In this document: positions 4,101-33,306 of the stretch, one piece after another
How positions within the stretch are numbered: position 1 is the first letter of the stretch
Layout: the number at the start of each line of letters is the position of its first letter
Assembly (NCBI GenBank): GCA_041488235.1
Contig: JBGPOW010000001.1
Coordinates: 737-64,736, forward strand
Direction of reading: 5' to 3'
Origin: Candidatus Binatia bacterium
Lineage (GTDB): Bacteria > Desulfobacterota > Binatia > UTPRO1
Length of the DNA: 64,000 nt
Program-made: the position numbers and the translations under genes
Notes under the pieces: generated by a model
What the model saw: the letters and a program-made list of their open reading frames with translations, nothing else
What the model was told of the DNA's origin: nothing
Databases searched by the model: none

Positions 4101-4361
4101 CGTCAATGAGGGCATCCTACCGGAGCAGTCACGAGCGCTCAAATGACGCGCGGAGCAACAGCTTGCGCGTCGCGCCGGTGACGCGGCGCACGGAGTTGCG
4201 CGATGAATTACTGGGCAGCGCTGTCCACTCGCGCGGCACTCGGTACTCCCGCGACGCACGCTTGGTAAGATTTGCCACACTTTCTTTGCTGCGGCACGCG
4301 AACGAAAGGGTACTTTCTCCGGCATGGGATTTGCGATCGGCCGTGGGTGGGAGGCACGCAC

Positions 4362-21607: not shown

Positions 21608-23557
<1,950 letters not shown>

Positions 23558-25643: not shown

Positions 25644-25710
25644 AATCCGAGCACTCACCCGCTGAAAACCGAGCACTCGACGTCCTGGCCGACCAACTCC
25701 GAGCAGTACT
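25644..25710. repeat. Array of three AATCCGAGCAC / CCGAGCAGTAC motifs with about 22-bp spacing. It is the left boundary of the accessory island and is inverted relative to the array at 27831-27889.
   Basis: aaatccgagcactc at 25644, aaaaccgagcactc at 25666, ctccgagcagtac at 25698. Confidence 0.5.
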
Positions 25711-25905
25711 TGACGATGAGGAGGGTCGGAGCCCTGGCGTCCATCGCGCCGACCGACGACCAGGGCAATCAAGCAAAGGGCCGCTGCTTGCACCCTGGCA
25801 GGTCAGCGCAGCGGCCCGTGGTCGGTTCTTTGGTTCAACGCACCCTGCCCACGGCTGGAACCGTGGGCAGGGCCGAACACCGAGTGGTGGACCACCCGAT
25901 GCCCG

Positions 25906-26962
25906 TTGCAGCTACGGATTCTGGTCCGCCACTTGGGGAAAGACAAGTGGCCCGTGAACGTCCTCTCGTCTGAGAAGCAAACCCGCGTGATCGCCGCTCT
26001 CACTGAAGGCTGCTCCGTCCGCGCGACCGAGCGTCTGACCGACGTGCATCAGGAGACGATTCTCAACCTGAGCCGCCGCGTCGGCGAGGGCTGCCACCGT
26101 CTCCTCGACGGCATGCTCCGTGGCCTTCAGGTCGGCGTGATCGAGCTCGACGAGCAGTGGTCGTTTATCGGCTGCAAGCAGAAGAACGTCCGCGACGGCG
26201 AGCGCGAGCGCGGCGACTCGTGGCTCTTCATCGCGCTCGATGCGACTAGCAAGGCCGTCCTCAGCTACCGCATCGGCAAGCGCACGACGCAGAACACGAT
26301 GGCGCTCGCGCAGGACTTGCACGCGCGGCTCGTGAACCGGCCGCAGATCACGGCCGATGGATTCGTGCCCTACGTCAACGCCATCGCCGACGTGTTCGAC
26401 CGCAAGGTGGACTTCGCGCAGCTCATGAAGCACTACGGCACGCCGGCCGGAAACGAGGCGGCGGTGCGCTACTCCCCGGGCTCCATAAGAGGCATCGAGA
26501 AGCAGGTCGTCTGCGGCGCACCCGACGAGACGAAGATCAGCACCTCGTACGTCGAACGCTTCAACCTCTCGACGCGGATGCACCTCCGGCGCTTCACGCG
26601 GCTCACGAACGCGTTCTCGAAAAAGCTCGCGAACCACCGCGCGGCGATCGCGCTGCACCTTGCGTACTACAACCTGGTGGCGCATCCACGAAACGATCCG
26701 CTGCACGCCCGCGATGGCGCTCGGCGTGACCGATCATCCGTGGACCGTGGCCGAGCTGGTCGAGGCGGCGCTCAGCGCGCCGGAACCGACGCCGCTCCTT
26801 CCGACGCAGCCGCCGCTCCCGTTCGGCATGAGCGCCGGGCGCGCGAAGGGTACGTGGGGCGGTGCGCTCGCGGATCGGCCGAGGCCGACCAAGAACAAGG
26901 GCAACCCTGGGCCGAAAAGATTCCGGGTGATCAAGGGCGGGCGCGATCGCGCGGGGTCGTAG
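25906..26962 (+). pseudogene. IS1-family transposase (InsAB-like fusion), frameshifted near the C-terminus
   Basis: IELDEQWSFIG..WLFIALDATSKAVLSYRIGKRT..ITADG..STSYVERFNLSTRMHLRRFTRLTNAFSKKLANH aligns block-by-block with E. coli IS1 InsB. The frame breaks after ...AYYNLV (ORF 25906..26985) and resumes in ORF 26660..26962 (RIHETIRCTPAMALGVTDH...KRFRVIKGG). The intact paralog at 29014..30045 reads through in a single frame. Confidence 0.7.
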
Positions 26963-27089
26963 CCCCTGCGCGGGGCAATCCTTGACGCTAGCAAGTGCTG
27001 TGCTACGCTTCGATCGAATTGCTGAGCAATCAACTCCTCGTAGTTGAATGGACTTTGGGCGCAGGGCATAGTCGTCGGTAGGAGGCCAG

Positions 27090-27767: not shown

Positions 27768-27830
27768 AGCGTCGCGACTTCCCGCTACGACTCACGACGG
27801 CGAACGGCAATCGCGCTGTTGGCGTTAGGT

Positions 27831-27972
27831 GGTCGGATTCGCCCGCGTCACGGGGGTGCTCGGATTTGACGCCCAGGGTGCTCGGATTCGGCGGCGCGAC
27901 GGCCAGAACCGAGCAGTACCCGACTAGCGGTACTGTCCTAACTAGGACACCCGCGGATTGAAAGTAGGACAC
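27831..27972. repeat. Repeat-rich junction with three GGTGCTCGGATT motifs of about 22-bp period, the 15-bp CAGTACCCGACTAGC repeat, the palindrome GTCCTAACTAGGAC and two TAGGACAC iterons
   Basis: ggtcggattc at 27831, ggtgctcggattt at 27855, ggtgctcggattc at 27877, gagcagtacccgactagc at 27911-27928, gtcctaactaggacac at 27935-27950, taggacac at 27965. Confidence 0.55.
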
Positions 27973-28099
27973 TCGCGTCTACTGGCCAAAATCGGGGGGG
28001 CCGTTTTTTCCTCGACGGCCACCCCTCGACCGTGGCACCCTGCGCGCACCAAATCTCGGCCGCCCCCGTCGGGCCCCCTAACGCCAGGAGGATTAGCCC

Positions 28100-28942
28100 A
28101 TGTTCCGCGTCTCTCGTCTGCTCGTCGCCGCCTCGCTCACACTCGCCGCTGCGTCGCCCGCGCGCGCCGGAACGCTCAAGTGCCCCGCCGACTCGGTGAA
28201 GGTCGGCAACGCCTGCATCGACCTCTACGAGACCAGTGTCTGGCAGATCGCCCCGTCAAACACGTCCCTCGTCAAGGCGGTGCAGAAAGGCAAGGCGACG
28301 CTCGCCACCCTGACTGCGGGCGGCGCCGTGCAGCTCGGCTGCACCTTCGCACCATTCAGTCAGACGGCCTATCCGACGAATTTCCCGAATAGCGGCCAGT
28401 GGACGCCGGTCCTCGGATCGGTGCCGCCGAGCCCGGGCGTCTACGCGGTCTCGATCCCCGGCGTGCTGCCGAGCTCGTGCATCACCTGGTTCCAAGCGGC
28501 ACAGGCGTGCGGCGTCTCGGGGAAGCGTTTACTCACGAATCTTGAGTGGCAGAATGCGGCGGCGGGGACGCCCGATCCGGGAACGGACAACGGCACGACG
28601 GACTGCAACATCTCCACCGCCGGCAACCCGGTGAACACCGGATCGCGATCGAACTGCAAGTCGAGCTGGGGCGCGTTCGACATGGTCGGCAACGTCGACG
28701 AGTGGGTGGCGGATTGGGCGGATCTCAACACGACGGGCTGCACCGATTCGACGACCTTCTTCGGCTTCGCCGGCACCGGTGATCAAATATGTTTCGGCGG
28801 GGACGGTAGTCCGAAAGCTCCGGGGGCGTTGCGTCGCGGCGGCATTTGGGTCAGCGGCGCGGGCGCCGGCGTCTTCTCCGTGAATGCCGCCTTCGGTCCG
28901 GCGTTCTCGTTCCTCAACGTCGGGTTCCGCTGTGCCCGCTGA
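28100..28942 (+). CDS. Secreted FGE-sulfatase/SUMF1-domain protein (formylglycine-generating-enzyme family)
   Basis: Signal peptide MFRVSRLLVAASLTLAAASPARA. C-terminal FDMVGNVDEWVADW...RGGIW...GFRCAR, the hallmark ending of the SUMF1/FGE fold. Confidence 0.7.
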   Translation: MFRVSRLLVAASLTLAAASPARAGTLKCPADSVKVGNACIDLYETSVWQIAPSNTSLVKAVQKGKATLATLTAGGAVQLGCTFAPFSQTAYPTNFPNSGQWTPVLGSVPPSPGVYAVSIPGVLPSSCITWFQAAQACGVSGKRLLTNLEWQNAAAGTPDPGTDNGTTDCNISTAGNPVNTGSRSNCKSSWGAFDMVGNVDEWVADWADLNTTGCTDSTTFFGFAGTGDQICFGGDGSPKAPGALRRGGIWVSGAGAGVFSVNAAFGPAFSFLNVGFRCAR

Positions 28943-29000
28943 GTCGTCCCGGGCTTTGGCCCTTTGACAGTTTGATCTTTGGCTCTCCTCGGGTGTGGAG

Positions 29001-29032
29001 GGGCGGGCGGCTGTTACGGCTGCCGCCCGCCC
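29001..29032. terminator. GC-rich hairpin (11-bp stem) overlapping the stop of the second IS1 transposase, between the FGE gene (+) and the transposase gene (-)
   Basis: GGGCGGGCGGC-tgttacggct-GCCGCCCGCCC. No T-run. Confidence 0.3.
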
Positions 29033-30045
29033 TTGATCACGCGGAAGCGTTTCGGTCCTAGATTACCGCGCGTCTTGTTCGGCCGCGGGCGATCCGCCAG
29101 CGCGCCGCCCCAGGTGTTCTTCGCGCGACCGGCGCTCATGCCTCTGATCGGCTCCGGCGCGGGCGCCATCGGCGGCGCCGTCGGCGCGCTCAACGCCGCG
29201 TCGATCAACTCGCCGATCGTCCACACGTGGTCAGTGATGCCGAGCGCCATTGCAGGCGTGCAGCGCAACGCCTCGTGGACGCGGCAGAGATTGTAGTGGG
29301 CGATGTGCAGCGCAATCGCGGCCTGGTGATTCGCGAGCTTCTTCGAGAAGCCGTTCGTCAGGCGCGTGAACCGGCGTGACGCCATCCGCGTCGTCAAGTT
29401 GAAACGCTCGACGTAGCTCGTGCTGATCTTCGTGGGGTCTGGGTCGCCCTGAAGCACGGTGCGCTCCGTGCTTCTTATCTTGCCCGGTGAGTAGCGAACC
29501 GCGGCCTCGTTTCCGATCGTCACGGCGTAGTTCTTCACGATGGTCGCGAAGTCCACGTCGTCGCCGAACGCGCGCTCGATTGCATCGGGGTACGCGGACC
29601 AGCCGTCCGCCGTGATCTGCGGCCGGTTGAGCACCCGTGCGCGGAGATCGGAGACGATGGCGCGGGTGTTCTCGGTGCTGCGCTTCCCGACGACGTACGT
29701 CAGGACGGCCTTGCTCGTCGCATCGAGCGCGAGGAACAAGTAGCAGTCGCCGTATTCCTTCGGATCTTCGGGGCGGACGCGCTTCGCCTTCTTGAACAAA
29801 AACGACCAGCTCTCATCAAGCTCGATTACGCTGACCTGAAGGTTGCGGAGCATGCCGTCGAGCAGCCGACGGCATCCGTCGCCGACCTGGACGCCGAGCC
29901 GCATCACGGTGTCGCGGTGCGTGTCGGTCAGGCGCTCCGTCGCGCGGATCGAGCAACCTTCCGTCAGCGCGCCGACGATGCGGGTTTGGGTCTCACGAGA
30001 GAGGGTATTCACGGGTGTTGCCTTCCTCCGAGGGGCGACCCACAA
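29014..30045 (-). CDS. IS1-family transposase (InsAB-like fusion), apparently intact
   Basis: 343 aa with an HTH N-terminus (TRIVGALTEGCSIRATERLTD) and IELDESWSF...YLFLALDATSKAVLTYVVGKRS...ITADGWSAYPD...STSYVERFNLTTRMASRRFTRLTNGFSKKLANHQAAIALHIAHYNLCRVHEALRCTPAMALG... It is about 70% identical to the frameshifted copy by eye and lies in the opposite orientation. Confidence 0.8.
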   Translation of the reverse strand: MWVAPRRKATPVNTLSRETQTRIVGALTEGCSIRATERLTDTHRDTVMRLGVQVGDGCRRLLDGMLRNLQVSVIELDESWSFLFKKAKRVRPEDPKEYGDCYLFLALDATSKAVLTYVVGKRSTENTRAIVSDLRARVLNRPQITADGWSAYPDAIERAFGDDVDFATIVKNYAVTIGNEAAVRYSPGKIRSTERTVLQGDPDPTKISTSYVERFNLTTRMASRRFTRLTNGFSKKLANHQAAIALHIAHYNLCRVHEALRCTPAMALGITDHVWTIGELIDAALSAPTAPPMAPAPEPIRGMSAGRAKNTWGGALADRPRPNKTRGNLGPKRFRVIKGGRQP

Positions 30046-30089
30046 TCGAAGCGTCTGACGGCATCGGGTGGGTAACCGCTCGGTGTTGG

Positions 30090-30125
30090 CCCCGCTCTCG
30101 GCTCCAACCGGGAGCGGGGTTTTTG
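30090..30125 (+). terminator. Rho-independent-type terminator (CCCCGCTC...GAGCGGGG + TTTTT) in the IS left end, oriented to block plus-strand read-through
   Basis: 8-bp stem, 14-nt loop, T5 run. An equivalent position in copy 1 has a hairpin without a T-run. Confidence 0.4.
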
Positions 30126-30219
30126 TTTGCGGTCCACTTGCTCACGAGACGAATGTTGCCACATTCGTCCTACGTAGTCAAGCGTTGACGCCGTAGGCTT
30201 TCTGTGGCAACAATCGTCC

Positions 30220-30387
30220 ATGCCTAAACCCAAACGAAAGCCGAAGGCCCTCCGGAAAGAGGACTCCATTCGGATTCGCGTCTCGGCCGAGCAAAAAAAG
30301 ACGCTGACGGCCGCTGCCGAGCGGGCGGGCCTGGACGTGTCGTCCTGGCTCCGCACGCTCGGCATGCGGGAGGCCGCTAGCGGCTAA
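30220..30387 (+). CDS. Small ribbon-helix-helix protein (CopG/MobC-like), 55 aa. Not in the ORF track because it is shorter than 60 aa.
   Basis: ATG at 30220 gives MPKPKRKPKALRKEDSIRIRVSAEQKKTLTAAAERAGLDVSSWLRTLGMREAASG, a classic RVS..EK..L...A...G.S.S.WLR pattern. A TTGACG -35-like element lies about 30 nt upstream. Confidence 0.5.
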   Translation: MPKPKRKPKALRKEDSIRIRVSAEQKKTLTAAAERAGLDVSSWLRTLGMREAASG

Positions 30388-30651
30388 GCCCGCGTCTTCT
30401 CACGCCCCAGCGGCGGATCTTCGTGCGATACGTACTGATCCACGCGGGCGTGATGCCGGCCATCCACCTGAGTACCCGTGCTCTCATGGGTACACCTCCA
30501 CCTCTTCAAAAAGGCGGCGGAATGTGGAAGGATCGCGGTTAGTTGGTTCTTCCGCGAGCTTCGTTTCCCGTCGCTCGTTGCAGTTCTGGCGAACTGCGTG
30601 CCGAGGTCTTGAACACCTCGGCACGCATCGCCGCTCCCGCCCAGCAGCAAA

Positions 30652-30855
30652 CTAAGTCACGGCCTCGTTGACACCTCCGTTTCGCGCGCCTCGATGCGCG
30701 CGAGTTTTCTCGCGGATGGCCTTCTGCACCGCGTCGGCAACGAAGGCTTCCATGGTCGTGTCGCATCGCGCGGCGACGATCTTGACCTCGTTGCGGAACG
30801 ATTTGCTAACCCGGACGGCGAGCAGGACCGCGTGTTGTTCGGACTTCATACCCAT
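30652..30855 (-). CDS. Small ribbon-helix-helix-like DNA-binding protein (67 aa from an internal ATG)
   Basis: MGMKSEQHAVLLAVRVSKSFRNEVKIVAARCDTTMEAFVADAVQKAIREK shows a beta-strand plus two-helix RHH pattern. The track ORF extends to 30936, but that start would collide with the divergent gene at 30935. A perfect 10-bp-stem hairpin GTGCCGAGGT/ACCTCGGCAC lies about 30 nt downstream. Confidence 0.4.
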   Translation of the reverse strand: MGMKSEQHAVLLAVRVSKSFRNEVKIVAARCDTTMEAFVADAVQKAIREKTRAHRGARNGGVNEAVT

Positions 30856-30934
30856 ACCCTCGCACAGTCTGACGGGTAACTCTAGCTTTTTAGCCGTCAG
30901 GTGATACCGTCTGACGCAGAAAAGTAACGCGCAC

Positions 30935-31843
30935 ATGGCCGAGTCCAGTCAGACACGTGGAAACGAGCGGCGAACCGACGCGATGCATTCGCTTGCGCGC
31001 GCCGTCGCGTTCGCCAATCTCGACTTGGAATGCCCGGAAGCGCAGTGGGAAACGCAACGCCACATCGTCGGCACTAAGGCGACGCCGCTGCGCGTACTCT
31101 GCCACTTTCGATTCCCGGATGAATTCGGGCGCGCTTTGCGGATGCCACCCGGCGGTCGCGAGGCCAAAGTGACGAGCGGTCCCCGGCAGCTCGTGCCGAT
31201 TGACCTGCTCGACACTGAAGACCCGCTGGAAGCGCAGCGCCACATGCGCACGCTCCTCACGGACATCATCACGGGCAACTCGCGCGGCGTCATCGCCGCG
31301 TTGCAGTCGGTCACGGTTTCCGTCCGTATGGGTGTCGCGATGGCCCGCGACGACACGAAGCGGTCCCGGCCATCACGGCGTCATCCGTCGCTGGACGTGT
31401 GGTATGAGTCGCCGCTCGGCTACGACGAGCTGCGCTACGGTGTCGTGCTCGGTGGGGTCGCTACGCTCTATCACCGCCTCGGCCGATGCCGGTCGTGCAA
31501 TCGGTTCATCCTCGCCAAGACCGACCGTCCAGTACGGTACTGTGCTAACCGGGAGTGCCAGCCGCGCGGAGCGCCCAAGCCGCGCGGAAAGGCGCCGAGC
31601 GTAACAGCCGGCTACAAGCGCCAACAGCGCGCGCGGCAACAGCGGTGGGACGAGCATCGCGACCGCATGCGAGCGGCGTTGAACGGCACGCCGTCCGTGC
31701 GCGGCCTCACGAAGCTCGTGCGCCAGGGAGAACGACTGTTGGAGGAGTGCTTCCGGTGGAAGGAGTCACCAGCGCGGAAAGATGCGGCGCGCGTGCTGGA
31801 TCAAGCCCGCGACCGAATTAGGACACTCGGAGCTTCAACTTAG
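30935..31843 (+). CDS. Hypothetical 302-aa protein with a C4 zinc ribbon (CRSCNRF...YCANRECQ) and a basic C-terminal region
   Basis: Long clean ORF. No family recognised. Its last codons and stop lie inside the TAGGACAC iteron array. Confidence 0.5.
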   Translation: MAESSQTRGNERRTDAMHSLARAVAFANLDLECPEAQWETQRHIVGTKATPLRVLCHFRFPDEFGRALRMPPGGREAKVTSGPRQLVPIDLLDTEDPLEAQRHMRTLLTDIITGNSRGVIAALQSVTVSVRMGVAMARDDTKRSRPSRRHPSLDVWYESPLGYDELRYGVVLGGVATLYHRLGRCRSCNRFILAKTDRPVRYCANRECQPRGAPKPRGKAPSVTAGYKRQQRARQQRWDEHRDRMRAALNGTPSVRGLTKLVRQGERLLEECFRWKESPARKDAARVLDQARDRIRTLGAST

Positions 31844-31880
31844 GACACTGGCGGGGAAGATAGGACAGTACCCGACTAGC
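31819..31880. repeat. Three TAGGACA(C/G) iterons at 22-bp spacing followed by the 15-bp direct repeat CAGTACCCGACTAGC. Right boundary of the island.
   Basis: taggacac at 31819 and 31841, taggacag at 31861, cagtacccgactagc at 31866-31880. The same 15-mer occurs at 27914-27928. The palindrome GGTCCTATAGG follows at 31906. Confidence 0.55.
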
Positions 31881-31920
31881 ATTTGCGTTGACTTACCGGG
31901 CGACGGTCCTATAGGTTTTC

Positions 31921-33306
31921 GTGTTTTCGTCCGGCGCTCGGGTGCGCCGTACCGATACCATCGTGTTCGACACTCTCGGCGACAAGCTCGACCTCGTTTT
32001 CAAGCGGCTCCGCGGCCACGGCCGCATCACCGAGCGCCACATGACGGAAGCCCTGCGGGAGATCCGCATGGCGCTCCTCGAGGCCGACGTCGCACTCCCG
32101 GTCGTGCAAACGTTCGTCGAGCGCGTTCGCGAGCAGGCGCTCGGTCAGGAGGTGCTGCGCAGCCTGACGCCGGAGCAGCACTTGGTGAAGTTCGTGCACC
32201 AAGAGCTCACGCGCACGATGGGAGGCGAGACCACCGTCCTCGACCTCGGCGCACCGCCGCCCGTCGCCGTCATGCTCGTCGGGCTGCAAGGATCCGGCAA
32301 GACGACGACGGCCGCGAAGCTCGCGCGGCACCTGAAGACGGAGAAGGGTCGCCGGCCGTACCTCGTCCCCGCTGACGTGTATCGGCCAGCGGCGATCGAG
32401 CAGCTGACGACGCTCGGGCGGCAGATCGGCTGCCCCGTGCACCCCTCGACCGCCGACATGGATCCCGTCGAGATCGCGCGCGCGGCGCAGGCGGCGGCGC
32501 GCTCGCAGAACCTCGACACCCTCATCCTCGACACCGCCGGGCGGCTGCACATCGACGACGAGCTCATGGCCGAGCTCGAGCGGATCAAGGCCGCGATCAC
32601 GCCGAAGCACGTGCTGCTCGTCGCCGACGCGATGACCGGCCAGGACGCGGTGAACGTCGCGCAGGGATTCCACGAGCGCCTCGCGATCGGCGGGGTCGTG
32701 CTGACGAAGCTCGAGGGCGACGCCCGCGGTGGCGCGGCGCTCTCGATCCGCGAGATGAGCGGCGCGCCGATTTATTTCGTCGGCGTCGGCGAGAAGCTCG
32801 AGGCGCTGGAGCCGTTCTATCCGGACCGCATGGCGTCGCGGATCCTCGGCAAGGGCGACATCCTTTCTCTCATCGAAAAAGTCGAGAAGGCGTACGACCA
32901 TCGTCAAGCGGAAGCGCTCGAGAAGAAGCTCCGCAAGAACGAGTTCACGCTGGAGGACTTTCGCGATCAGCTGCAAATGGTGAAGCGCCTGGGCTCCATG
33001 GGCGAGATCCTCGGCATGATCCCGGGTATGAAAAAGCTCACGTCCAAGCTCGATCCGGGCGTGGCGGACGCCGAGCTGAAAAAAGTCGAGGCGATCGTCA
33101 ATTCCATGACGAACCAGGAGCGACGAAACGACGCGATGATCAACGGCAGCCGGCGTAAACGCATCGCGCTCGGCAGCGGAACCAGCGTCGCCGACGTGAA
33201 TCGCTTCCTGAAACAATATGCACAGACAAAAAAGATGATGAAACAACTCACCAAGCTCGGTCGGCCGGGCGGTGGTAATCCGTTTTCACAGCTGATGCCC
33301 GGCTGA
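31921..33306 (+). CDS. ffh: Signal recognition particle protein Ffh
   Basis: ...VMLVGLQGSGKTTTAAKLA...DTAGRLH...C-terminal M-domain. The true start may be the GTG at 31963 (VFDTLGDKL). Confidence 0.9.
   Translation: MFSSGARVRRTDTIVFDTLGDKLDLVFKRLRGHGRITERHMTEALREIRMALLEADVALPVVQTFVERVREQALGQEVLRSLTPEQHLVKFVHQELTRTMGGETTVLDLGAPPPVAVMLVGLQGSGKTTTAAKLARHLKTEKGRRPYLVPADVYRPAAIEQLTTLGRQIGCPVHPSTADMDPVEIARAAQAAARSQNLDTLILDTAGRLHIDDELMAELERIKAAITPKHVLLVADAMTGQDAVNVAQGFHERLAIGGVVLTKLEGDARGGAALSIREMSGAPIYFVGVGEKLEALEPFYPDRMASRILGKGDILSLIEKVEKAYDHRQAEALEKKLRKNEFTLEDFRDQLQMVKRLGSMGEILGMIPGMKKLTSKLDPGVADAELKKVEAIVNSMTNQERRNDAMINGSRRKRIALGSGTSVADVNRFLKQYAQTKKMMKQLTKLGRPGGGNPFSQLMPG

What the first reader, a model, noticed from the sequence alone, without database searches (positions are those of the whole stretch)
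30220..31843. Pair of tiny RHH proteins plus an uncharacterised 302-aa zinc-ribbon protein as the possible regulatory or mobilisation core of the island
A 55-aa CopG/MobC-like ribbon-helix-helix ORF (30220..30387, below the ORF-track cutoff) is preceded by a rho-independent-type terminator and a TTGACG box. A second RHH-like ORF (30652..30855, minus) is followed by a perfect 10-bp hairpin. It is divergently arranged with a 302-aa protein whose only recognisable feature is a C4 zinc ribbon and whose stop lies inside the TAGGACAC iterons. RHH proteins are the classic iteron or operator binders of plasmids, ICEs and TA modules. The large protein could be a novel mobilisation, replication-initiation or recombination factor.
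Basis: inference. Interest (0 to 1): 0.55.

Follow-up and report, generated by a model that had tools for sequence, protein, structure and literature searches.

The report
Regulator genes riding an IS1-family transposon
The two small ribbon-helix-helix genes and the 302-aa zinc-finger gene are real, but they are passenger or regulatory genes inside a 3.9-kb IS1-family transposon. The "TAGGACAC iterons" are that transposon's end repeats, so this is a new member of a known kind, not a plasmid-like replication or mobilisation core.

Summary
The context changes what they mean.

**The element.** Window 27929-31872 is a discrete 3,944-bp transposable element.
- It has perfect 12-bp terminal inverted repeats (GGTACTGTCCTA / TAGGACAGTACC).
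- It has TAGGACAC subterminal repeats at both ends.
- It is flanked by an intact 8-bp target duplication (CGACTAGC).
- It carries an IS1-like DDE transposase and sits just upstream of ffh.

**The same end elsewhere.** The triple-repeat end occurs in 52 species-representative genomes: Alphaproteobacteria, Polyangia, Binatia and Burkholderiales. It usually lies next to a homologous transposase. At least nine further loci show the same inverted repeat plus an exact 8-bp duplication, and the cargo varies. The "iterons" are therefore transposon ends, not RHH operators.

**The 302-aa protein.** It belongs to a rare family (14 clusters among 1.8 billion representatives) found only in mobile-element contexts, usually next to a divergent small RHH or XRE gene. 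Its confident model matches only Jann_2411 (ABATE domain plus CGNR-type zinc finger). There is no relaxase, Rep, primase or recombinase fold.

**Most likely role.** A nucleic-acid-binding regulator paired with a small repressor and carried as cargo. This role is inferred, not shown.

The parts
27921..27928 (.). Left copy of the 8-bp target-site duplication, CGACTAGC.
   Evidence: Identical to 31873-31880 and lies immediately outside the terminal inverted repeats.
27929..27972 (+). Left end of the transposon: terminal 12-bp inverted repeat GGTACTGTCCTA (27929-27940), then TAGGACAC repeats at 27943-27950 and 27965-27972.
   Evidence: 12/12 complementary to 31861-31872. The same end layout, GGYRCTGTCCTA-nn-TAGGACAC-N14-TAGGACAC, is seen in L018, L026, L029, L033, L046 and L054.
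28100..28942 (+). Passenger gene: a 280-aa protein with an FGE-sulfatase-like domain and a signal-peptide-like N-terminus.
   Evidence: Pfam PF03781 at E 2e-12. It was not found in any other copy of the element, so it is variable cargo.
29014..30045 (-). IS1-like DDE transposase (343 aa from the first start codon; JGI aa).
   Evidence: - Pfam DDE_Tnp_IS1 at E 6e-10, 40 bits, above the 24.1-bit cutoff.
- NCBIfam IS1 at E 3e-18, but 66 bits is below the 100-bit cutoff.
- 71% identical to the transposase of L002 and 79% to that of L018.
- Plasmid relatives at about 41% identity are annotated as IS1 family transposase.
30088..30126 (+).
   Evidence: Picked up by the terminator scan. It is conserved with compensatory changes upstream of the transposase in the window's second copy, L002, L018 and L046.
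30185..30214 (+). Promoter-like site, TTGACG-18-AACAAT, ahead of the 55-aa ORF.
   Evidence: This is a consensus match only; function was not tested.
30220..30387 (+). 55-aa NikA/MobC-type ribbon-helix-helix protein, divergent from the transposase.
   Evidence: Pfam NikA-like above threshold and the JGI gene call. In L002 and L046 the same position relative to the transposase holds a 55-62-aa zinc-ribbon ORF instead; L005 has the same zinc-ribbon ORF upstream of its RHH and 302-aa genes.
30595..30627 (.). Near-perfect hairpin downstream of the 67-aa gene.
   Evidence: repeat I6. No U-tract follows it on the minus strand, as the sequence shows directly.
30652..30855 (-). 67-aa (65-aa in gene calls) probable RHH repressor; the conserved partner of the 302-aa family.
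   Evidence: Homologues sit in the same divergent position in L005/L006, L007 and L008/L009. It is replaced by an XRE-type HTH in L002/L003. Profile support is weak.
30856..30934 (.). Divergent promoter/operator region with GTCTGACG at 30867 and 30909 and the inverted copy CCGTCAG at 30894.
   Evidence: Three of the five GTCTGACG copies in the window lie at 30053, 30867 and 30909. CTGAC/GTCAG inverted repeats also occur upstream of the homologues in L002 and L008. This is suggestive and was not tested statistically.
30935..31843 (+). 302-aa protein (NCBI aa from the ATG at 30983). Layout: two alpha-hairpin-alpha units (ABATE-like), a C4 zinc finger (C185/C188/C203/C208), a basic linker and a C-terminal three-helix bundle.
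   Evidence: - AF2 model with pLDDT 86.
- The invariant residues are mostly Arg and Cys.
- No Pfam, NCBIfam, PHROG or PADLOC family matched.
31819..31872 (+). Right end of the transposon: TAGGACAC (31819), TAGGACAC (31841) and the terminal TAGGACAGTACC (31861-31872). The last 9 codons and the stop of the 302-aa gene overlap the first two repeats.
   Evidence: The same triple repeat is present in 52 genomes and is conserved in L002 although that protein is only 40% identical.
31873..31880 (.). Right copy of the 8-bp target-site duplication, CGACTAGC. It lies 40 bp before the first in-frame start of ffh, and about 82 bp before the likely true start at 31963.

Best explanation
**What it is.** Window 27929-31872 is one copy of an IS1-family 'transporter IS', meaning an insertion sequence that carries passenger genes. 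It inserted by DDE transposition just upstream of ffh.

**How it moves.** The IS1-like transposase (29014-30045) presumably recognises the 12-bp terminal inverted repeats and the TAGGACAC subterminal repeats. Insertion duplicated 8 bp of target. The 'iterons' are therefore transposase-binding end repeats.

**What the finding's genes are.** The three ORFs fill the variable cargo bay between the transposase gene and the right end.
- The 55-aa NikA-type RHH is divergent from the transposase. It is probably a small regulator of that promoter region.
- The 67-aa RHH and the 302-aa protein form a portable two-gene module that also occurs on other mobile elements.
- The 302-aa protein is a non-enzymatic, zinc-finger nucleic-acid-binding protein: an ABATE-like domain, a CGNR-like zinc finger and a three-helix bundle.
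- It most likely acts as a CI-like regulator or sensor, paired with a small Cro-like repressor that shares its divergent promoter.

**Shown versus inferred.** Shown here: the element's boundaries, its family of ends, the transposase homology, the fold of the 302-aa protein and the gene co-occurrence. Inferred: which protein binds which site, and what the regulator pair controls.
For: **The element and its ends.**
- A perfect 12-bp inverted repeat and an exact 8-bp direct repeat lie at the predicted positions in the window.
- The pattern TAGGACAC-N14-TAGGACAC-N12-TAGGACA occurs in 52 species-representative genomes of several classes or phyla. It always ends TAGGACA followed by 5 variable-but-similar bases (most often GYACC), after which the sequences diverge.
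- Sixteen loci (besides L002) have a full or partial IS1-like transposase homologue (51-79% identity) on the opposite strand, 0.1-2.3 kb inside the end.
- Nine further loci show the same inverted repeat plus an exact 8-bp duplication, with element lengths from 343 to 5,242 bp. These include MITE-sized derivatives.
- The left-end layout is conserved.
- The cargo between transposase and right end differs among loci.

**Transposase family.** Pfam DDE_Tnp_IS1 is above threshold. Relatives on plasmids are annotated as IS1 family. The Mesorhizobium loti plasmid relative sits between 23-bp inverted repeats about 3.4 kb apart, with other annotated genes between them. The tIS concept is described in PMC9330008.

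**The 302-aa protein.**
- The family is rare: 6 hits among 5.8 billion sequences, and 14 clusters among 1.84 billion representatives.
- Its contexts are integrase or serine-recombinase islands, a type I R-M plus HNH region, phage-like operons, a primase-helicase element, and IS1595 and IS1-like elements.
- A divergent small RHH or HTH partner is present in most loci.
- The model has pLDDT 86 and shows two alpha-beta-hairpin-alpha units followed by a zinc hairpin.
- The zinc-finger sequence aligns in register with 3h0n's. The ABATE/CGNR description comes from PMC2954205.
- The invariant residues are Cys and Arg; there is no conserved acidic or His catalytic set.
Against: - No empty site was found for direct comparison (one search returned nothing).
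- The transposase scores below NCBIfam's IS1 cutoff (66 against 100 bits). It is a single ORF with no IS1-type frameshift.
- In L023 an inner IS1595-like element shares the same terminal sequence, and in L015 an IS1595-like transposase gene lies next to the triple repeat. The cognate enzyme class is therefore not uniform.
- The ABATE/CGNR relationship rests on fold only. No Pfam ABATE or zf-CGNR hit appeared in any of 15 family members at E<=10. The pairwise BLASTP alignment is not significant (E 0.59). The family's 'R' of CGNR is not conserved.
- The window and L002 keep the same type of cargo in the same position, with the stop codon inside the end repeats, although the proteins are only 40% identical. 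This could mean the 302-aa protein has a role in transposition itself rather than being neutral cargo.
- The RHH fold of the 67-aa protein is not confirmed.
Confidence: 0.75

Rival explanations
1. **Mobilisation (relaxosome) core.** The NikA/MobC-like RHH proteins would be oriT-binding accessory factors, the 302-aa protein a novel relaxase, and the TAGGACAC repeats the oriT or iterons.
For: The 55-aa ORF matches the NikA-like family. It also matches TraJ, MbpA and MobA models weakly.
Against: - The 302-aa protein has no relaxase-like fold and no conserved His or Tyr catalytic motif.
- The repeats occur in 52 genomes without these genes and are bounded by an inverted repeat plus an 8-bp duplication.
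- No relaxase or T4SS gene lies in the element, and the flanks examined are housekeeping genes.
- The 55-aa ORF is replaced by an unrelated zinc-ribbon ORF in L002 and L046.
Confidence: 0.03
2. **Iteron/Rep replication module.** The 302-aa protein would be a replication initiator that binds the TAGGACAC iterons at its own 3' end.
For: Three direct repeats at about 21-22-bp spacing overlap the end of the gene.
Against: - The repeats are shared by 52 loci that lack the gene.
- Homologues outside the IS1-type element have no such repeats.
- There is no winged-helix Rep fold.
- The locus is chromosomal, between groEL and ffh.
Confidence: 0.02
3. **Transposition accessory factor.** The RHH/HTH plus 302-aa pair would be a regulator or target selector for this IS lineage, for example repressing leftward transcription into the transposase gene or binding the right end. 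It would not be independent cargo.
For: - The window and L002 keep the same gene order (transposase, small ORF, small regulator, about 300-aa gene), with the stop codon inside the end repeats, despite only 40% protein identity.
- A 503-bp MITE-like derivative (L050) retains a fragment of the protein's C-terminus.
- GTCTGACG occurs twice in the RHH67/302 promoter region and once just upstream of the transposase start.
- Other copies carry a different gene of about 236-340 aa in the same bay.
Against: - Most members of the element family lack the module.
- The module also occurs on elements with no IS1-like transposase.
- The GTCTGACG in the leader is also present in L018, which lacks the 302-aa gene, and is absent from L002.
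Confidence: 0.15
4. **Addiction or defence cassette carried as cargo.** The 302-aa protein would be a toxin or effector, and the small RHH/HTH its antitoxin or transcriptional gatekeeper.
For: - The small partner swaps between RHH and XRE types, as happens in TA and defence modules.
- The contexts include an R-M plus HNH region and prophage-like regions.
- The 67-aa protein weakly matches antitoxin-type RHH profiles.
Against: - The divergent orientation is not a TA operon.
- No PADLOC family matches the 302-aa protein.
- There is no enzymatic or pore-forming domain, and the conserved residues are Arg and Cys, typical of nucleic-acid binding.
Confidence: 0.1

Closest known systems
IS1-family insertion sequences with passenger genes (transporter IS). 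The single-ORF / ISMhu11-type subgroup of ISfinder is cited from my own knowledge; the tIS concept is in PMC9330008.
   Same: - A DDE transposase matching DDE_Tnp_IS1.
- Terminal inverted repeats that begin GGnnnTG (GGTACTG).
- An 8-bp target duplication.
- Passenger genes inside the inverted repeats, and MITE-like derivatives.
   Different: - The transposase is a single 343-aa ORF with no frameshift and scores below NCBIfam's IS1 cutoff.
- The ends carry ordered subterminal repeats: three at the right end, and a palindrome plus one repeat at the left. This is more like Tn7/Mu/Tn402-type ends than classic IS1.
- An IS1595-like element in L023 shares the same terminal sequence, and an IS1595-like transposase lies beside the end in L015.
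Jann_2411 / DUF1470: ABATE domain plus CGNR treble-clef zinc finger (PDB 3h0n; PMC2954205).
   Same: - A tandem alpha-beta-hairpin-alpha N-terminal domain followed by a Cys4 zinc finger and a basic tail.
- It is the best and only whole-domain structural match.
- Both are predicted nucleic-acid-binding regulators with no demonstrated function.
   Different: - No detectable sequence membership in PF07336 or PF11706.
- The zinc knuckle is CxxC rather than CxxxxC, and the CGNR motif reads CQPR/CRxx with a non-conserved Arg.
- It has an extra C-terminal three-helix bundle of about 80 aa.
- It is found exclusively on mobile elements.
NikA / MobC / CopG-type ribbon-helix-helix proteins.
   Same: The 55-aa ORF matches PF21983 above threshold. 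The 67-aa ORF has an RHH-like sequence pattern.
   Different: There is no partner relaxase, oriT or plasmid replicon. The position is a cargo or regulatory bay of an IS.
CI/Cro-type divergent regulator pairs of phages and integrative elements.
   Same: A small DNA-binding gene is transcribed divergently from a larger putative regulator, with inverted repeats in the shared intergenic region. Distant homologues sit divergent from early or replication operons.
   Different: There is no sequence or fold relationship to CI, and no peptidase or oligomerisation domain of the CI type. The resemblance is organisational only and was not tested.

Membership tests
IS1-family transposable element | DDE transposase of the IS1 type. 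| tested here: met
   Pfam DDE_Tnp_IS1 at E 6e-10, 40 bits against a 24.1-bit cutoff. Relatives at 41% identity are annotated as IS1 family by PGAP. Caveat: NCBIfam NF033558 gives 66 bits against a 100-bit cutoff.
IS1-family transposable element | Terminal inverted repeats (the family's ends begin GGnnnTG; this feature is from my own knowledge of ISfinder). | tested here: met
   GGTACTGTCCTA and TAGGACAGTACC are 12/12 complementary. GGTGCTG and GGCACTG variants occur in other loci.
IS1-family transposable element | Target-site duplication of 8-9 bp. | tested here: met
   Exact 8-bp duplications in the window and in L014, L023, L029, L033, L046, L049, L050, L051 and L054.
IS1-family transposable element | Two ORFs (InsA/InsB) joined by a programmed -1 frameshift, as in classic IS1. 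| tested here: not met
   A single uninterrupted 343-aa ORF. This fits only the single-ORF subgroups.
Ribbon-helix-helix (55-aa ORF) | Profile match to an RHH family above the curated threshold. | tested here: met
   PF21983 NikA-like at 33.2 bits against a 27-bit cutoff.
Ribbon-helix-helix (67-aa ORF) | Profile match or a beta-alpha-alpha fold. | tested here: inconclusive
   Only sub-threshold hits: Antitox_RHH at E 0.06 and PHROG HicB-like at E 5e-4. The family alignment shows a strand-helix-GxT-helix pattern. AF2 gave a single helix from a 3-sequence alignment.
Relaxosome / mobilisation module | A relaxase gene and oriT adjacent to the NikA/MobC-like protein. | tested here: not met
   No relaxase domain in the element or in the neighbours examined. 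The 302-aa protein has no relaxase fold.
Iteron-Rep replicon | A Rep initiator fold, with iterons specific to the Rep gene. | tested here: not met
   No Rep-like structural match. The repeats are absent from other homologue loci and present in 52 loci without the gene.
ABATE + zf-CGNR (PF07336/PF11706) | Tandem alpha-beta-hairpin-alpha domain followed by a Cys4 treble-clef finger (fold level). | tested here: met
ABATE + zf-CGNR (PF07336/PF11706) | Sequence match to the Pfam models, with a conserved CGNR motif. | tested here: not met
   No hit in 15 members at E<=10. The motif is CQPR/CRxx with a variable fourth residue. Pairwise BLASTP E 0.59.
Type II toxin-antitoxin | A co-directional two-gene operon of antitoxin and toxin. 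| tested here: not met
   The genes are divergent in the window and in L002, L005, L007 and L008.
Known anti-phage defence systems | Match to a PADLOC model. | tested here: not met
   No hit for the 302-aa protein. The 67-aa protein has only a weak DpdI hit at E 0.0024.

The most novel reading that the evidence does not exclude
The small RHH/XRE gene plus the ABATE-like zinc-finger protein could be a previously unrecognised, self-contained two-gene switch of mobile elements. In this IS lineage it may couple transposase expression, or end or target choice, to a cellular signal sensed by the ABATE-like domain. That would be a stress- or ligand-gated transposon. Its conserved placement with the stop codon inside the right-end repeats, seen in the window and L002, would then be functional rather than accidental.
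Probability: 0.15. Interest if true: 0.6.

Novelty: new member of a known kind. Interest (0 to 1): 0.38.

Why it matters
- **Interpretation.** An apparent 'iteron plus RHH plus unknown protein' replication or mobilisation core turns out to be the cargo bay and end repeats of an IS1-family transporter IS. This avoids a wrong annotation.
- **The element family.** It is defined by GGYRCTGTCCTA termini, ordered TAGGACAC subterminal repeats and 8-bp duplications. It has two cargo bays and MITE derivatives, and it is spread across Alphaproteobacteria, Myxococcota, Binatota and Betaproteobacteria.
- **The 302-aa protein.** It gives the first fold-level assignment (ABATE-like plus CGNR-like zinc finger) for a rare, mobile-element-restricted protein family. 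It also points to a testable regulator pair.
- **Overall.** The practical impact is modest. The protein family is rare and its role is inferred.

Tried and rejected
- **Sequence family searches for the 302-aa protein.** Pfam, NCBIfam, PHROGs, PADLOC and PDB sequence searches gave nothing usable. The only signal was weak DUF6076 in 5 of 15 members.
- **Related-locus scans.** Scans of genome and metagenome contigs with the protein alignment confirmed no relatives.
- **Viral fold library.** No meaningful match. The afdb50 library was unavailable.
- **Rfam over 27800-32000.** Only sub-threshold chance hits.
- **Intergenic region 30388-30651.** Only a 12-nt block (GGGTACACCTCC) is shared with L002. 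No conserved RNA is evident.
- **Empty-site search.** A scan with the 27-nt post-insertion flank found nothing.
- **Composite transposon idea.** I considered that the two IS1-like genes (25906-26985 and 29014-30045) bound a composite transposon. I rejected it: they are only 66% identical, and the right-hand one has its own inverted repeats and target duplication.
- **RHH or 302-aa binding to TAGGACAC.** Rejected on the distribution of the repeats.
Full report
**Observation.**
- The 55-aa ORF (30220-30387, +) matches Pfam NikA-like RHH above its curated threshold (E 6e-08, 33.2 bits against 27). JGI's gene caller calls it independently with the same Pfam label.
- A strong hairpin plus T-run (30088-30126) and a TTGACG-18-AACAAT site (30185-30214) precede it.
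- The minus-strand small ORF (30652-30855; 65 aa in gene calls) is followed by a 16-nt-arm hairpin at 30595-30627.
- That ORF is divergent from the 302-aa ORF (30935-31843). The 302-aa ORF has four invariant cysteines, and its TAG stop is part of the second TAGGACAC repeat.
- All three ORFs show GC3 > GC1 > GC2, as the flanking genes groEL and ffh do.
- TAGGACA occurs six times in 64 kb against about 1 expected, all in two clusters.

**Surroundings.** The genome has about 68% G+C. The gene order is:
- groEL (21911-23557)
- a rhodanese-domain gene
- a response regulator
- IS1-like transposase A (25906-26985, +)
- a 79-aa ORF
- DUF2335
- an FGE-sulfatase-like gene (28100-28942)
- IS1-like transposase B (29014-30045, -)
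- the three ORFs of the finding
- ffh, rpsP, a KH-domain gene, rimM and trmD

The 'island' is therefore a small insertion cluster in a housekeeping region.

**The repeats are transposon ends.**
- The second TAGGACA cluster (27934-27971) holds an exact inverted copy (GGTACTGTCCTA, 27929-27940) of the sequence that ends the right-hand cluster (TAGGACAGTACC, 31861-31872).
- The 8 bp immediately outside each copy are identical (CGACTAGC at 27921-27928 and 31873-31880).
- In contig L002 the 302-aa homologue is only 40% identical, yet the three repeats at the gene's 3' end are conserved at the DNA level. The gene order is also the same: IS1-like transposase, small ORF, small regulator, about 300-aa gene.

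I then scanned one genome per species for TAGGACAC-N14-TAGGACAC-N12-TAGGACA and found 52 loci.
- They come from Alphaproteobacteria, Polyangia and other Myxococcota, Binatia, and Burkholderiales.
- In every locus the repeat array ends TAGGACA followed by 5 variable-but-similar bases (most often GYACC), and similarity stops there.
- Sixteen loci (besides L002) have a full or partial homologue of transposase B (51-79% identity) on the opposite strand, 0.1-2.3 kb inside the array.
- Nine further loci have the inverted terminal 12-mer at the far side together with an exact 8-bp duplication. Element lengths range from 343 and 503 bp (MITE-like) to 5,242 bp.
- The left-end layout is also shared: terminal inverted repeat, an immediately adjacent TAGGACAC that forms a palindrome with it, and one more repeat 22 nt further in.

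Window 27929-31872 (3,944 bp) is therefore an intact copy. It has perfect inverted repeats, an intact duplication and a full-length transposase. It belongs to a widespread element family.

**Transposase family.**
- The transposase matches Pfam DDE_Tnp_IS1 above threshold.
- IS1 is its best NCBIfam match (E 3e-18), although the score is below the curated cutoff.
- Plasmid relatives at about 41% identity are annotated as IS1 family transposase.
- The Mesorhizobium loti plasmid relative sits between 23-bp inverted repeats (GGGTAGTGGGTCAG...) about 3.4 kb apart, with other annotated genes between them.
- The GGnnnTG termini and 8-bp duplication fit IS1 as I know it from ISfinder. IS elements with passenger genes are known as transporter IS (PMC9330008).

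**Cargo varies.** The content between transposase and right end differs among copies.
- Eight copies carry an unrelated protein of 236-340 aa with a shared 'RSPxFPxIPL...' N-terminus.
- L046 carries a zinc-ribbon ORF plus a 294-aa protein.
- L054 and L020 carry an 80-94-aa HTH-like ORF.
- Only the window and L002 carry the 302-aa family, and the MITE-like L050 retains a C-terminal fragment of it.
- The FGE-like gene in the other bay is unique to the window.

**The 'terminator' belongs to the IS backbone.** The hairpin upstream of the 55-aa ORF is conserved, with several compensatory stem changes, upstream of the transposase start in transposase A's copy, L002, L018 and L046.

**The 302-aa protein.**
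- It is rare: 6 hits among 5.8 billion sequences, and 14 clusters (E<=1e-3) among 1.84 billion representatives. No relatives were found in the species-representative genomes.
- No library names it.
- The AlphaFold model from the 15-sequence alignment is confident (pLDDT 86). It shows helix-hairpin-helices twice (residues 5-79 and 97-175), then a beta-hairpin carrying C185/C188, then a loop with C203/C208, a basic linker and a three-helix bundle (223-301).
- Foldseek independently ranks 3h0n first (probability 0.99, 209 columns).
- 3h0n is Jann_2411, the founding ABATE ('alpha-beta-hairpin-alpha tandem') plus CGNR treble-clef zinc-finger protein. It was proposed, but never shown, to be a stress-related transcription regulator (PMC2954205).
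- The zinc-finger sequences align in register: RLGRC--RSCNRF...RYCANRECQPR against RFGICNAHRCDRV...RQYCS-LACQNR. The alignment is not statistically significant, and no family member hits the Pfam ABATE or zf-CGNR models.
- I therefore call it ABATE/CGNR-like by fold, not a demonstrated member.
- The invariant residues are Cys and Arg, which argues for nucleic-acid binding rather than catalysis. There is no relaxase, Rep, primase or recombinase similarity.

**Co-occurrence.** Homologues always lie in mobile-element settings:
- a tyrosine-integrase plus serine-recombinase island (L001);
- the IS1-like element (window, L002);
- next to an IS1595 transposase (L007);
- beside a type I R-M system and an HNH gene (L008);
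- divergent from a phage-like operon (the P0011 contig);
- divergent from a primase-helicase/serine-recombinase operon (L068).

A small divergent gene precedes the 302-aa family gene in most loci.
- In the window, L005/L006, L007 and L008/L009 it is a homologous 60-70-aa protein with a strand-helix-GxT-helix pattern.
- In L002/L003 it is an XRE-family HTH.
- The shared intergenic regions contain CTGAC/GTCAG inverted repeats in the window, L002 and L008.

This is the organisation of a divergent regulator pair. Its target is unknown.

**Interpretation.**
- Shown: a bounded IS1-family transporter IS; the TAGGACAC repeats as its ends; and the finding's ORFs as its cargo or regulatory bay.
- Inferred: the transposase binds the repeats; RHH55 regulates the divergent transposase promoter region; and RHH67 plus the 302-aa protein form a DNA-binding regulator pair, either neutral cargo or a modulator of the element.
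- The retention of this module at the same place in two copies whose proteins are only 40% identical keeps the accessory-factor rival alive (about 0.15).
- Relaxosome and Rep/iteron readings are effectively excluded.

**Novelty and score.** This is a new member of known kinds: an IS1-family tIS carrying an ABATE/CGNR-like regulator. Showing that the 'iterons' are transposon ends is a useful clarification. The rare regulator pair is a modest lead. Interest is 0.38.

Noticed in passing
window 25644-25710 and 27856-27920: A second, related element type with CCGAGCAC repeats in place of TAGGACAC. At 25647/25669/25699 there are three direct repeats ending CCGAGCAGTACT. At 27856-27920 there are two inverted repeats plus the terminal CCGAGCAGTACC. 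These flank transposase A (66% identical to transposase B), a 79-aa ORF and DUF2335. The left cluster points the 'wrong' way for a simple element, so this copy looks rearranged or is made of two partial elements.
   Followed up: partly
window 27909-27940; L054 (oriented) about 4186-4237: The 3.9-kb element inserted exactly beside the terminus of the neighbouring related element...CAGTACC, then the 8-bp duplication, then GGTACTG... L054 shows the same arrangement next to a GGNCCAG-repeat terminus. This suggests end-targeted insertion that builds tandem arrays.
   Followed up: partly
window 30018-30126 (+); also 25830-25905: The conserved hairpin plus T-run sits on the strand antisense to the transposase 5' end and shows compensatory changes across copies. 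It could be the terminator of an antisense regulatory RNA of the IS10 RNA-OUT type. Rfam gave only a sub-threshold sRNA-like hit (anti-hemB, E 0.05).
   Followed up: partly
L049 (343 bp) and L050 (503 bp), oriented coordinates: MITE-sized derivatives of the element, with a perfect (L049) or 10/12 (L050) inverted repeat and exact 8-bp duplications. L050 keeps a 38-aa fragment of the 302-aa protein's C-terminus just before the right end.
   Followed up: partly
L014, L022, L029, L033, L052, L053, L059, L060 (cargo bay): A recurrent, unannotated family of 236-340-aa proteins with a shared N-terminus (RSPxFPxIPLxxAxER...SSGxxQxIxALKxYGL) occupies the bay that holds the RHH/302-aa module in the window. 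The two members tested have no significant Pfam match.
   Followed up: partly
L002 2903-3070; L005 163-321; L046 4390-4578 (oriented coordinates): A nearly identical 52-62-aa zinc-ribbon ORF (MAKVKL...CERCEHEWVPR...CPKCKSPYWN) sits where the window has the NikA-like 55-aa ORF.
   Followed up: partly
L023 75-2085 and 75-4901; L015: An IS1595-like transposase element with 35-40-bp inverted repeats shares the same terminal sequence (GGTGCTGTCCTAATTAGG). It sits at the left end of a 4.8-kb unit that ends in the triple-repeat right end and has its own 8-bp duplication. So IS1-like and IS1595-like enzymes appear to use the same termini.
   Followed up: partly
window 30053-30060, 30867-30874, 30909-30916: Three of the window's five GTCTGACG copies lie in the transposase leader and in the RHH67/302-aa intergenic region. 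This may be a shared operator, or it may be chance.
   Followed up: no
window 31921-31965: The mechanical ffh ORF starts at 31921, but the conserved Ffh N-terminus (V/MFDTLGDKL) begins at the GTG at 31963. A TTGACT-N16-TATAGG sequence at 31888-31915 lies between the insertion and that start, so the ffh promoter may be intact.
   Followed up: no
window 30935 vs 30983: JGI calls the zinc-finger protein as 302 aa, while NCBI aa starting at Met17. Family conservation begins just after Met17.
   Followed up: no
L062 (Mesorhizobium loti plasmid CP050295) 1795-5166: An annotated 'IS1 family transposase' lies between 23-bp inverted repeats about 3.4 kb apart, together with an HTH-domain gene, a histone-H1-like gene and a hypothetical gene. 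This looks like another cargo-carrying IS1-family element.
   Followed up: partly
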